Of a stretch of DNA of 64,000 nt, positions 32,130 to 44,100 are shown piece by piece; within the stretch, counting starts at the first letter, position 1, and the number at the start of each line of letters is the position of its first letter. Origin of the DNA: the human T2T-CHM13v2.0 reference genome, Homo sapiens; assembly GCF_009914755.1 (NCBI RefSeq), contig NC_060945.1, one strand, 5' to 3'. Below the pieces are notes generated by a model. That model was not told the DNA's origin and did not search any database. It worked only from the letters and a program-made list of their open reading frames with translations. The position numbers and the translations under genes were made by a program.

Positions 32130-35100
32130 AATGGAATCCACTAGAGTGGAATGGAATGGAATGGAGTGGAGTGCAATGGAGTGTGGTGGAATGCAATGGA
32201 GTGGAGTGGAATAGAATGGAGTAGGGTGGAATTCACTGGAACGGAGTGGAATGTACTGGATTTGACTGGAATGGAGTTGAGTGGAGTGGAATGGAGTTGA
32301 CTGGAGTGGCATGGAATGGAGTGGAGTGGAGTGCAATGGAATACAGTAGACTGGAGTGGAGTGAATTGGTGTTGAATGGAAAGGAATGGAATGAAATGGA
32401 TACTTAGATTGTGCCACTGCACTAAAACCTGTGTGACAGTAGGGGAACCTGTCGAAAGAAAGGAGTGGAATGGGAAGGAGTGTAGTGTAGTGGAGTGGAG
32501 TGGAGTGGAATTGGAGATTAATATAATGGAGTGGAGTGGAATGGAATGGAGTGGAGTGGAATGGATTGCAGGGGAGTGGGGTGGAGAGCAGTGGAATGGA
32601 GTGGAGTGGAATGGAATGGAATGGAATGGAATGGAGTGGTCTGGAATGGAATGGAGTTGCGTGGAGTGGAGTTCAGTGGACTTGAATGGAATGGAATGGA
32701 ACTGAGTGAAATGGAATGGAATGGAATTGGTGCTGAGATTGTGCCACTGCGCTACAACCTGTGTGATAGAGGGAGATCCTGTCAAAAGAAAGAATTCGAA
32801 TGGGAAGAAGTGGAGTGGATTGGAGTTGAGTGGAATGGAATGGAATTGATTGGAGTGAAATGGAATGGAATGAATGGTAAAGGAATGGAATGGAGTGGAG
32901 TATGGTGGAATGGAATGGAGTGGAGCGTAGTGAAGTGCAGTTGAGTGGAATGGATTGGAGTGGAGTGAAATGCAGTGGAAAGGAGTTGAGCGCAATTTAC
33001 CGGAAAGCAGTGGAATGGAATGGGGAGGAATGGAAAGGCATGGAGTAGAATGGAGTGTAGTGGATTGGAGTGGAGTGGAATTGACTGGAGTGGACTGGAG
33101 TGCATTGGAGTTGGGTGGAATGGAATGGAATTCAATGGCCTGCAGTGGAATGGAATGCAGTGGTGTTGAGTGTAGTGGAGTGGAATGGAACAGAATGGAA
33201 TGGAATGGAAAGGAGGAGTGGAGTGGAGTGGAATTCAGTGGAGTGGATTGCAGTGGAATGGAATGGAATGGATTGGAATGGAGATGAGTGGAGTTGAAAG
33301 AAGTGGAGTGGAATGGAGTGCAGAGGAGTGGATAGGAGTGCAATGGATTGCAGTGGAATGGAATGGCATAAAGTGGAGTGGAATTTAGTGGAATGGAGTG
33401 GAATGGACTGGACTGGAATGGAATGGAATGGAGTGGAGTGGAATGGAATGGAGTGGAGTGGAATGGAATAGAGTGGAGTGGAGTGGAATGCAGTGGCGTG
33501 GAGTGGAATAGAGTGAAGAGGAGTGGATGTAGTGAAGTGAAGTGGAATGAAATGGGGTGGAGTGGAGTGGAATTGAATGGATTGGAGTGGAGTGCAAAGG
33601 AGTCGAATGGAAACGGATGCAAAGGAATGTAGTGGAATGGAGTGGATTTGACTGGAATGGAATGGAATGGAATGGAATGGAATGGAATCGCTGTTGAGAT
33701 CGTGTCACTGTGCTACAGACTGTGTGACAGAGGGAGATCCTCTGGAAAGAAAGGAGTGGAATGGGATGGTGTCGAGTGGATTGCAGTGGAGTGGAGTGAA
33801 ATGGAGTGGAATGGATTGGTGTGGAGTGTAATGGAGTGGAGTGGAGTGGACTGGAATGGAGTGGATTGGGTTGGAATGGAGTGCAGTGGAGTGGAATCAA
33901 GTGGAATGGAATGGGGTGGAGTGTGGTGGAATGGAATGGATTGGATTGGAGTGGAGTGGAGTGGAGCTTAATGTTATGGAGTGGAGTGGAATGGATTGGA
34001 ATGGACTGGAATGGAATGGATTGGAGTGGAGTGGAGAGCAGTGGAGTGGAGTGGAGTGGAATGGAATGGAATGGAGTGGCATGCAGTGGAGTGGAAGGGA
34101 GTGGAGTGGACTGGAGTGGAAAGGAGGTGAATGAAATGGAATGGAATGGAATGGAATGGAATGGAATGGAATGGAATGGGTGATGAGATTGTGCCACTGC
34201 ATCAAAACCTGTGTGACAGAGGGAGATCCTGTCAAAAGAAAGAATTGTAATCGGAAGCAGTGGAGTGGATTGGAGTTGAGTGAAACGGAATGGAATGGAG
34301 TGGAGTGGAGTGGAATGGAGTGGAGTGGAGTTGAATGGAATGTGGTGGAGTGGAATGAAGTCGAGTGGAATGGAGTGGAATGGAATGTGATGGAATGGAA
34401 TGGAATGGATTATGGTGGAGTGGAGTGGATTGAAGTGGAGTAGAGTGGATTGTAGTGGAATGAAATGGGATGGAATGGAATGCCATCGAGTGCAGTGGAG
34501 TGGAGTGGACTGGAGTGGAGGAGAGTGGAATGGAGTCGAGTGGAATAGAATGGAGTGGAACAGAATGGAATGGAATGCAATGGAATGGAATGCAAAGGAA
34601 TGGAATGCAATTAAATAGAATGGAATGGAATGGTGAAATGAAATGTGAGCTGAATTGGTGCCACTGCACGCCAGCCTGGGTGACAGAGTGAGATGCTGTC
34701 GAAAGAAAGAAATGGAATGGAATGGAGTGGAGTGGAGTGGTGTGGAGTGGAGTGGTGTGGAGTGGAATGGAATGGGATGGACTATAATGGAATGGATTGC
34801 TGTGGATTGGAGTGGTGGAGAGTGGAATGGAGTCGAGTGGAATGGAATGGAATGGACTGGAGTGGAATGCAGTGGAATGGAATGGAAAGGAGTGGAGTGG
34901 AGTGCAGTGGAGTGGAGTGGAGTGGAATGGAATGGAATGGATTAGCGAAATGAAATGTAAGCTGAGATTATGTCACTGTACTCCAGAATGGGTGACAGAG
35001 TGACATCCTGTGGAATGTAAGGAATGGAATGGATTGGAGTGGAATGGTTTGGAATGTAGTGGAGTGGATAGGAGTGAAGTGGAGTAGAATAGAGTGGAGA

Positions 35101-41100: not shown

Positions 41101-44100
41101 GTGGATTGAGGAGGAACGGAGCGGAATGGAATGAGATGGAATGGAATGGAATGAAGTGGAGTGGAGTGGGGTGGAGTGGAGTGCAGTGGAATGGTGTGGA
41201 ATGGAATGGGATGGAGTGGATGGAGTGGAATGGAGTGGAGCGCAGTAGAGTGAATATGAGTGGAATGGAGTGGAATGGAAACGAATGTAATGGAATGTAG
41301 TGGAGTGGAGTGGAACGGAGTGGGATGGAATGGAATTGAATGGAATGCAATGGAATACAATGCAATGCAATGGAAAGTTGACATGTAATGTGAGCTGAGA
41401 TTGTGCCACTGTACTCCAGCCTCGGTGACACAGTGATATCCTGTCAAAAGAAAGGAATGGAAATGAATGGAGTTGAATGGAATGGGATGAAAGGGAATGG
41501 AATGGAGGGGAGTGGAGTGGAGTGGAGTGGATTCGAGTGGAATGGAGTCGAATGGAATGGGATGGAGTGGAATGGAGTGGAGTGAATTGGAGTGAAATAG
41601 AGTGGAATGGAGTGGGATGGAATGGAATACAGTGGAATGGTGAAAAGAAATGTGAGGTGAGATTGTGCCACTGCACTCCAGTCTTTGTGACCGAGTGAGA
41701 TCTTGTGGAAAAAAGGAATAGAATGGAATAAAGCGGACTGGAATGGAATTGAATGGAAGGGAGTGGAGTGGAGTCGAGTGGAATGGAGTGGAATGAAATG
41801 TGATGGAATGGAATGGCATGGATTATGGTGGAGTGGAGTGGATTGGAGTGGAGTAGAGTGGAATGGAGTGGAATGAAATGGGATGGAATGGAATGCCATT
41901 GAGTGCAGTGGAGTGGAGTGGACTGCAGTGGCGGAGAGTGGAATGGAGTCGAGTGGAATAGAATGGAGTGAAATAGAATGGAATGCAATGGAATGGAAGG
42001 CAAATGAATGGAATGCCATGGAATAGAATGGAATTGAAAGGTGAAATGAAATGTGAGCTGAATTTGTGCCACTGCACGCCAGCCTGGGTGACAGAGTGAG
42101 ATGCTGTCGAAAGAAAGAAATGGAATGGAATGGAGTGGATTGGAGCGGTGTGGAGTGGAGTGGTGTGGAGTAGAATGGAATGGGATGGACTGTAATGGAA
42201 TGGAGTGCAGTGGAGTGGAGTGGCGGAGAGTGGAATGGAGTCGAGTGGAATGGAATGGAATGGACTGGAGTGGAATGGAGTGGAACGGAATGGAAAGGAG
42301 TGGATTGGAGTGCAGTGGAGTGGAGTGGAGTGGAATGGAATGGAATGGAATGGATTAGCGAAATGAAATGTAAGCTGAGATTCTGCCACGGTACTCCAGA
42401 ATGGGTGACAGAGTGACATCCTGTCTAATGTAAGGAATGGAATTGAGTGGGGTGGAATTGAATGGAATGTAGTGGAGAGGATAGGAGTGGAGTGGAGTGG
42501 AATGGAGTTGAGAGGAATGGAATGGAAGGGAGAGGAGAGGAGTTGACGGAGTGGAGTGGAATGGAATGGGATAGAATCGAATGGAATGAAATTGAGGGGA
42601 GTGGAGTGGAGTGTTGGGGAGAGGAGTGGAGTGGTGTGGAAATGGATGGAATTGAATGTAGTGGAGTGGAGTGGAGTGGGATGGAGAGGAGTGGAGTAGA
42701 GTGGAGTGGAAAGGAACAAAATTGAATGGAGTGGAGCCGAGTGGAGTGGAGTGGAGTGCAGTGGAGTAGAATGGAATACAGTGGAATGGAAATGAATGGA
42801 ATGGAAAGGAATGTAACGGAATAGAATGGAATGATGAAATGAAATATGAGCTGAGATTGTAACACTGCACTCCAGCCAGTGTGACAGAGTGAAATACTGT
42901 CAAAAGAAAGGAATGGAATGGACAGGTGTGGAATGGAATGGAATGGAATGGAGTGGAGTGGAGTGGATTATAGTGGAATGGAGTGGAATGGAATGGGATG
43001 GAGTGGAGTGGAGTGGAGGGGAGTTGAACGGAACGGTATGGAATGGAATGGAATGGAATGGAATGGAATGGAATGCAGTGGATTGGAGTGGAGTTTGCAG
43101 GAGTGCAATGGAATGGGATGGAATGAATTGAATGCATTGCAATGGAATGGAAAGCAATGGAATGCAATGGAAAGGAATGCAATGGAATGGAATGGAATGC
43201 AATGGAATGGAATGGAGAAATGAAATGTGAGCTGACATACTGCCACTACACTCCAGCCTGGGTGACAGAGTGAGATCCTCTCGAAAGAGAGTTATGGAAT
43301 GGAATGGAGTGAAATGGAATGGAATGGAATGGAATGGAATGGAATGGAATGGAATGGAATGGAATAGTGAAATGAAATGTGACCTGAGATTCTGCCACTG
43401 CACTCCAGACTGTGTGACAGAGTGAGATCCTGTCGAATGTAAGGAATGGAATGGAATAGAGTGGAATGGAATGGAATGGAATGGAATGGAATGGAACGGA
43501 ATGGAATGGAGAGGAGAGGAGCGGAGCGGAGTGGAGTGGAATTGAATGGAATGGGACGGAATTGAATGGAATGAAGTGGAGGGTAGTGGAATGGAGAGAA
43601 GAAACGAGGAGTGGAAATGAATGGTATTGGATAGAATGGAATGGAGTTGAGTGTATTGGGGTGAAGAGGAGTGGAATAGAGTGGAATGGAATGGAATGGA
43701 GCGGAGTGGAGTAGAGTGGATTGTGGTGGAATGTAATGGAATAGAATGGAATGGAAAGGAAAGGAATATAATAGAATGGAATGATGAAATGAAATATGAG
43801 CTGAGATTGTGCCACTGCACTACAGCCAGGATGACACAGTGAGATCCTGTTGAAGGAAAGGAACGGAATGGAAGGGAGTGGAATGGAATGGAATGGAATG
43901 GAATGGAATGGAGTGGAGTGGAGTGGCATGCAGTCGAATGGAGTGCAGTATCCTGGAATCAAATGGGATGGAATGGAATGAAATGGAGTAGAGGGGAGTG
44001 GAGTGGAGTGGAATGGAATTGAAAGGAATGGAATGGAGTGCAATGGAGTGGAATGGATTGGAGTGCATAGGAGTGGAATGGAATGGAATGGAATGGAATT

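What the first reader, a model, noticed from the sequence alone, without database searches (positions are those of the whole stretch)
34240..43870. Nested higher-order repeat hierarchy readable from cassette variants
Seen: cassettes 8-15 (35838-38507) repeat in order as 16-23 (38757-41454), offset ~3.0 kb. Cassettes 5-8 (34632-35914) and the upstream spacer repeat as 25-28 (42040-43291), offset ~7.4 kb. Cassettes 29 and 30 share private features with 26 and 27 (TTCTGCCAC...AATGTAAGG; GATGAAATGAAATATGAG), offset ~1 kb. Inference: an ancestral ~4.4 kb unit (7.4 minus 3.0; about 12 cassettes) later gained an internal 8-cassette duplication, over an older 3-cassette period. This parallels the monomer-to-HOR evolution of alpha satellite, but with an Alu-derived monomer.
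Basis: partly seen in the sequence, partly recalled or inferred. Interest (0 to 1): 0.7.

Follow-up and report, generated by a model that had tools for sequence, protein, structure and literature searches.

The report
Twelve-cassette unit in human satellite III
A block of human satellite III DNA on chromosome 21 carries 35 short Alu-derived tags whose order reveals a 12-tag, 4.5-kb repeat unit that is still intact in a copy on chromosome 14 and was likely reshaped here by one unequal-exchange duplication and two deletions, which is ordinary satellite turnover that happens to be unusually easy to read.

Summary
The repeats are real. Cassettes 8-15 recur as 16-23 (8 of 8 pairs in the top 13 of 595) and 5-8 as 25-28 (4 of 4 in the top 11); 10,000 shuffles never gave a run above 3. 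The predicted ~4.4-kb, 12-cassette unit exists: a chr14 paralogue holds it intact (4,479 bp), followed by a partial second copy. Eight of 13 CHM13 loci with a marker cassette show 4.45-4.70-kb spacing; only this locus and its closest chr14 paralogue show ~3 kb. Two parts of the reading fail. The 8-cassette copies are not younger than the +20 pair (43/688 versus 20/344 mismatches, p=0.89; star-like tree). The '3-cassette period' is a deletion junction: 28 and 29 lie 152 bp apart here but 6,430 bp and 18 cassettes apart in the paralogue, and period 3 inside the unit is not significant (p=0.41, 0.63). HSat3 arrays with Alu fragments, and multi-kilobase units in GAATG satellite, are published. Monomers vary from 152 to 961 bp and copies are few and 6-8% divergent, so this is a nested-repeat relic, not an alpha-type HOR array. 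Modest interest.

The parts
32150..46499 (+). GGAAT/GGAGT satellite III block with 35 Alu-3'-end cassettes, spacing 152-961 bp (left boundary approximate)
34384..38565 (+). Copy A of the 12-cassette unit: upstream spacer plus positions a-k (cassettes 5-15)
35645..38565 (+). First copy of the 8-cassette segment d-k (cassettes 8-15), ends approximate
38563..38582 (+). Junction 1: GGAGT run in spacer 15->16; left part is k->l type, right part is c->d type
   Evidence: and the sequence
38565..41520 (+). Copy B: second copy of d-k (cassettes 16-23), ends approximate
41636..41721 (+). Cassette 24 = position l, the twelfth of the unit
   Evidence: 0.94 to cassette 14 of the chr14:1.43 Mb paralogue
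41797..43315 (+). Copy C: start of the second 12-cassette unit, spacer l->a plus a-d (cassettes 25-28)
43316..43365 (+). Junction 2: (GGAAT)10 run joining position d to cassette 29; about 6.3 kb and 18 cassettes present in the chr14:1.43 Mb paralogue are absent
43363..46282 (+). Cassettes 29-35, part of an older, more diverged layer (29 and 30 are b- and c-like positions of another multi-cassette unit)
46498..46499 (+). Junction 3: satellite fused to the inside of an Alu with a 2-base overlap; about 44.9 kb shorter than the chr14:4.69 Mb paralogue if colinear
46498..46760 (+). 5'-truncated Alu whose paralogues carry the Alu 5' end (20 of 20 loci read)

Best explanation
This is a satellite III block in which a short Alu 3'-end fragment sits between pentamer runs, and its 12-cassette, 4.5-kb unit (intact in a chr14 paralogue) likely gained a second copy of eight cassettes by one unequal exchange, probably between two already diverged copies of the block, and then likely lost about 6.3 kb and about 45 kb by deletions. 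Steps. (1) Shown: the cassette majority sequence matches the 3' end of Alus in the window. Inferred: one captured fragment was multiplied with its pentamer spacers into many diverged monomers. (2) Shown in the paralogue: twelve such monomers (a-l) form a unit followed by a second copy (a-h). (3) Shown: the block is spread over at least 13 loci. Inferred: by segmental duplication. (4) Shown: the chr21:6.48 and chr14:4.69 Mb copies have a-k, d-l, a-d with a hybrid spacer in a GGAGT run. Inferred: out-of-register crossover. Because the two d-k copies are as far apart as either is from the chr14:1.43 Mb unit, the partner was more likely a diverged paralogue (about 50%) than a sister chromatid (about 35%). 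(5) Shown: the same two loci join d to cassette 29 across a GGAAT run. Inferred: deletion, which creates the false +3 period. (6) Shown: this locus fuses the satellite to the inside of an Alu, unlike 20 of 20 flank paralogues read. No function is proposed; this is neutral satellite turnover.
For: Ordered +8 and +20 matches in cassettes and spacers. Intact 12-mer of 4,479 bp in L031. Marker spacing 4.45-4.70 kb in 8 of 13 loci, ~3 kb in 2 of 13, single in 3 of 13; one of those three (chr13:10.65 Mb) has a-type cassettes 4,711 bp apart. Same order and both junctions in chr14:4.69 Mb. Hybrid spacer: last 160 bases 7.6-11.6% from c->d spacers versus 18.7-23.9% from k->l spacers; first 80 bases score best with k->l. 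Spacers 4->5 and 24->25 match the first and second unit heads of the paralogue (5.5% and 4.2%) better than each other (8.4%), so A and B both belong to the first unit. A-B 43/688, A-paralogue 37/688, B-paralogue 44/688. 1 of 793 sites groups A with B against 12-29 private changes per lineage. d is followed by e in the other copies and 29-type by way of an a-type in two paralogue places, which polarises the deletion.
Against: The B-specific marker occurs only here and at chr14:4.69 Mb (2 matches), so no donor paralogue survives in this assembly. A star tree fits an in-place duplication right after the loci split equally well. Only 3 of the 12 other marker loci were read in sequence; the rest rest on motif positions. 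Spacer alignments are ambiguous in pentamer runs, and gene conversion may blur ages (15/23 and 11/19 are 0.99 identical while 8/16 is 0.895). The first-80-base assignment of junction 1 is weak (one c->d spacer gave 11.4% over 70 aligned bases, though with a lower score). No ape sequence was available.
Confidence: 0.7

Rival explanations
1. In-place tandem duplication of d-k between sister or allelic chromatids, very soon after the 12-mer doubled and the loci split.
For: Head-to-tail copies with one hybrid junction; derived state in 2 of 13 loci; no surviving donor.
Against: A-B distance is not below A-paralogue distance (43 versus 37 of 688, p=0.56) and is far above A-chrY (15/688, p=0.0002); 1 of 793 sites unites A and B.
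Confidence: 0.35
2. No duplication of eight: the ancestor had three 12-cassette units and lost l-a-b-c (about 1.5 kb) between the first two.
For: Gives the same junction and equal ages of the +8 and +20 pairs.
Against: None of 13 marker loci has three marker copies; the head of A and the tail of B both match the first unit of the paralogue, so the paralogue lineage would need a separate exact loss.
Confidence: 0.12
3. A true nested hierarchy with an older 3-cassette period under the 12-mer.
For: 26/29 at 0.884 and 27/30 at 0.860; segment 26-27 versus 29-30 14.2% against 17.0-20.5% for five control segments.
Against: Period 3 inside the 12-mer p=0.41 and 0.63; no lag from 1 to 6 significant. 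28 and 29 are 6,430 bp apart in the paralogue. Segment 8-9 versus 29-30 gives the same 14.3%.
Confidence: 0.05
4. Assembly artefact (false duplication).
For: Highly repetitive acrocentric arm.
Against: The two copies differ by 6-8% and the same structure with both junctions is present on chr14 at about 2% divergence.
Confidence: 0.02

Closest known systems
HSat3 arrays intermingled with Alu fragments (Rhie et al., T2T-Y preprint 10.1101/2022.12.01.518724; passages seen)
   Same: Pentamer satellite with Alu fragments, shared by acrocentric arms and chrY; the paper reports no local homogenisation and no clustering by chromosome, which matches neighbouring cassettes here being barely closer (0.771) than background (0.751).
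   Different: The passages seen do not describe ordered multi-cassette units. Here cassettes match by position in a 12-cassette unit across chr21, chr14 and chrY.
Nested tandem repeats / higher-order repeats in HSat2,3 and GAATG arrays (Altemose et al. preprint 10.1101/2021.07.12.452052, section 8 and passages; Warburton et al. PMC2588610, passages; Altemose 2014 PMC4022460, section 7 and passages)
   Same: Multi-kilobase units built from diverged pentamers (3,360, 3,600 and 5,630 bp on chrY; 1,366 bp pTRS-47), periodicity that varies locally, and ancient TE fragments inside repeat units.
   Different: This unit exists in only two to three partial copies per locus at 6-8% divergence and spread by block duplication rather than by array expansion.
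Satellite III with both GGAAT and GGAGT ('group II' as cited in PMC2588610; review PMC7767330, passages)
   Same: GGAAT 104-122 and GGAGT 64-95 per 2 kb across 32-46 kb; acrocentric short arm.
   Different: The named clone or HSat3A/B subfamily could not be assigned; the primary papers were not held.
Alpha-satellite higher-order repeats
   Same: An integral number of diverged monomers repeated in the same order, with out-of-register variants that make hybrid units (definition).
   Different: Monomer length 152-961 bp rather than uniform; few, old, partial copies; Alu-derived core; no centromere role known.
HSat1B/DYZ2 and WaluSat (passages)
   Same: Alu-linked satellites of acrocentric arms spread by segmental duplication and ectopic exchange.
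   Different: Different sequence families: one Alu subunit per 2.5-kb unit (DYZ2), or a 64-base monomer beside an AluSx3 (WaluSat).

Membership tests
HSat3 (satellite III) | Tandem array of diverged GGAAT pentamers | tested here: met
   Period 5, 9,190 copies, 1-46198
HSat3 (satellite III) | GGAAT plus GGAGT composition of the mixed type | tested here: met
   description
HSat3 (satellite III) | Assignment to a subfamily A1-A6 or B1-B5 by diagnostic 24-mers | not testable with these tools
   No subfamily k-mer set was available; supplements of PMC4022460 were not opened
HSat3 arrays with Alu fragments | Interspersed fragments homologous to Alu | tested here: met
   Cassette majority matches 45, 46 and 42 of 55 bases of the 3' ends of three Alus in the window
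HSat3 arrays with Alu fragments | Shared between acrocentric arms and chrY without local homogenisation | tested here: met
HSat3 arrays with Alu fragments | AluY subfamily origin | not tested
   No Alu subfamily library; a 55-base decayed fragment carries few diagnostic sites
Nested tandem repeat (Altemose definition) | Multi-kilobase unit derived from pentamer repeats | tested here: met
   4,479-bp unit
Nested tandem repeat (Altemose definition) | Unit recurs in tandem along the array | tested here: inconclusive
   One full plus one partial copy in the paralogue; three partial copies here
Alpha-satellite-type HOR | Integral number of monomers repeated in the same order | tested here: met
   8 of 8 and 4 of 4 ordered pairs here; a-h repeated in the paralogue
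Alpha-satellite-type HOR | Monomers of similar length | tested here: not met
   152-961 bp, mean 406, sd 187; criterion
Alpha-satellite-type HOR | Many near-identical tandem copies (recalled criterion) | tested here: not met
   At most two marker copies in each of 13 loci; 6-8% divergence

The most novel reading that the evidence does not exclude
The Alu fragments in mixed-pentamer HSat3 form a positional code: more than a thousand cassettes genome-wide sort by their place in a few multi-cassette units (12-mer, ~10-mer) rather than by chromosome, which would explain the published lack of local homogenisation; and the extra eight cassettes on chr21 and chr14 are the fossil of a crossover between non-allelic acrocentric blocks that were already about 6% divergent.
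Probability: 0.4. Interest if true: 0.45.

Novelty: new member of a known kind. Interest (0 to 1): 0.25.

Why it matters
HSat3 is hard to align because pentamer runs slip. The Alu cassettes act as countable landmarks, so duplications and deletions can be ordered across paralogues (1,144 matches of one leader-cassette motif genome-wide, 0 in the reversed control). That gives a cheap way to type acrocentric blocks, to time non-allelic exchange once ape genomes are added, and a testable reading of the published observation that HSat3-Alu fragments do not cluster by chromosome. It implies no new function and no new mechanism.

Tried and rejected
All-against-all BLAST of the window timed out; rare k-mer offsets replaced it. 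A DNA search with 34600-36000 scored only 2 of 10,008 candidates and returned the window itself. Reading 10 kb beside 20 of the 35 long matches of the unique flank gave no satellite in 20 of 20, because the flank is fused to the satellite only here; paralogous arrays were then found by motif. The other flank matches were not read. A 2-cassette sub-period (6-7, 8-9, 29-30) was considered and rejected: period 2 inside the 12-mer p=0.73 and 0.72. A search for a surviving donor of copy B found none. Trees for d-h and a-c left the deep branches unresolved (bootstrap 37-76 on the key nodes). LOC124908153 lies outside the block and was not pursued. Three papers wanted for the family history (Jarmuz 2007, the journal version of Altemose 2022, and a 2022 HSat review) were not held; bioRxiv supplements were not visible and may contain HSat3 periodicity tables or repeat annotation for this locus. 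Eight literature searches and the passages read showed no description of this 12-cassette unit; that is not proof of absence.
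Full report
Setting. The window is human chr21 short arm (hub annotation). Bases 1-46198 are one period-5 array in two parts: 1 to about 32150 is GGAAT-rich with a CAACCCGA motif and no cassettes; about 32150-46499 mixes GGAAT and GGAGT and holds 35 cassettes. The cassette majority matches 45, 46 and 42 of 55 bases at the 3' end of three Alus in the window, so the Alu origin is shown by comparison, not recalled. Cassette spacing is 152-961 bp.

The observation. Among 595 cassette pairs (mean identity 0.751), all eight +8 pairs rank in the top 13 and all four +20 pairs in the top 11. 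Spacers alone give the same offsets. Shuffling cassette order 10,000 times gave a longest run of 3 (46 times) against observed runs of 8 and 4. The +3 relation is limited to 26/29 and 27/30, and offset 3 as a whole is background (p=0.43).

Paralogues. A motif of cassette 11/19 has 23 matches at 13 loci on chr3, 4, 9, 13, 14, 15, 21, 22 and contig 24 (chrY by its size and number), 0 in the reversed control. Spacing is 4,449-4,703 bp at 8 loci, 2,910 and 2,989 bp at chr14:4.69 Mb and here, and single at 3. Three of the other 12 loci were read. chr14:1.43 Mb holds twelve cassettes a-l (= window 5-15 and 24) over 4,479 bp, then a-h again, then older layers. chr14:4.69 Mb repeats the window's order at about 2% divergence, with the extra eight cassettes and the 28->29 junction. 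chrY has a-k and then jumps to the 32-type.

The 8-cassette copy. Spacer 15->16 is a hybrid: it starts like k->l and ends like c->d, switching in a GGAGT run near 38570. Spacer 4->5 matches the head of the paralogue's first unit (5.5%) and spacer 24->25 the join to its second unit (4.2%), so A and B both derive from the first unit. But B is not a young copy of A: A-B 8.2% overall and 43/688 in cassettes; A-C (+20) 6.6% and 20/344 (p=0.89); A-paralogue 37/688 (p=0.56); A-chrY 15/688 (p=0.0002). Over d-h with flanks, 793 usable sites give 12, 23, 17 and 29 private changes for A, B and the two paralogue units, and 1, 1 and 4 sites for the three possible pairings, with only 1 uniting A and B. The simplest account is an out-of-register crossover between two copies that were already diverged; an in-place duplication right after the loci split fits nearly as well. 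No donor for B survives in this assembly. An A-type marker is exact at three loci only: here, chr14:4.69 Mb and chrY (3 of 18 matches).

The +3 period. In chr14:1.43 Mb the 28-type and the 29-type (0.99 to window 29) are 6,430 bp and 18 cassettes apart; here they are 152 bp apart, joined in a (GGAAT)10 run whose left side reads like the start of d->e and whose right side like the spacer before the 29-type. There the 29-type follows an a-like cassette, as it does again downstream in chr14:4.69 Mb. So 29 and 30 are b- and c-like positions of an older unit brought to +3 by a deletion. Inside the 12-mer no lag or period from 1 to 6 is significant (period 3: p=0.41 and 0.63). Against this: segment 26-27 is closer to 29-30 (14.2%) than five controls (17.0-20.5%), which is real homology but between unit copies, and 8-9 scores the same (14.3%).

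The array end. The flank has 35 long matches at 95-100% identity including the window itself. In 20 of 20 read, the neighbouring 10 kb is not satellite and the Alu has its 5' end. Here the satellite matches chr14:4.69 Mb up to 46499 and the Alu from 46498, a 2-base overlap; the two points lie about 44.9 kb apart on chr14 (the middle of that interval was not read).

Comparison with what is known. The T2T-Y preprint states that some HSat3 arrays are intermingled with Alu fragments, that those on chrY cluster with those on acrocentrics, and that there is no local homogenisation (passages). The T2T centromere preprint notes TE fragments in HSat3 units and defines nested tandem repeats as distinct from HORs of similar-length monomers. 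Warburton 2008 reports 3.36-, 3.6- and 5.63-kb higher-order units in GAATG arrays and cites a group with both GAATG and GAGTG. A great-ape preprint describes non-allelic exchange between short arms (passages). So the repeat class, the multi-kilobase periodicity and the exchange mechanism are known. I did not find this 12-cassette unit in eight searches, but key subscription papers and preprint supplements were not visible.

Verdict. Real and correctly predicted in its main point, wrong on the 3-cassette layer and on relative age. It works like an early, stalled higher-order repeat; it fails two defining features of alpha-type HOR arrays. New member of a known kind, interest 0.25.

Noticed in passing
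window 46498-46499: Satellite is fused to the inside of an Alu with a 2-base overlap; 20 of 20 flank paralogues read keep the Alu 5' end and non-satellite DNA; about 44.9 kb shorter than the chr14:4.69 Mb copy.
   Followed up: yes
window 1-32150: A different HSat3 type (GGAAT-rich, CAACCCGA motif 8-23 times per 4 kb, no cassettes) with strong periods near 3.85 kb and 2.8 kb; sharp switch to the mixed type near 32150.
   Followed up: partly
window 32400-34240, 37093, 37836, 40112, 40806: Cassettes 1-4, 13, 14, 21, 22 form a second class lacking the GAAATGAAATGT leader (0.76-0.94 among themselves); 2 and 4 are 0.907 identical, 1,450 bp apart.
   Followed up: partly
L035 (G000:C14:4677000-4686499): Cassette types 29-35 recur about 4.5 kb downstream (0.87-0.98), with a- and e-like cassettes between: a second multi-cassette unit of about ten. 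This locus lacks the first 30-type cassette.
   Followed up: partly
L034 (G000:C24:11509500-11519499): The chrY copy goes from position k straight to the 32-type and ends three cassettes later: an independent internal deletion.
   Followed up: partly
window 45790-46100: Short local duplication inside spacer 34->35 (46 rare k-mer pairs within the same spacer).
   Followed up: no
G000 C7:57.73 Mb, C16:35.64 Mb, C10:38.98 Mb, C24:11.12-11.26 Mb and 62.07 Mb: Further arrays with the same cassette motifs off the acrocentrics, the largest listed on contig 24.
   Followed up: no
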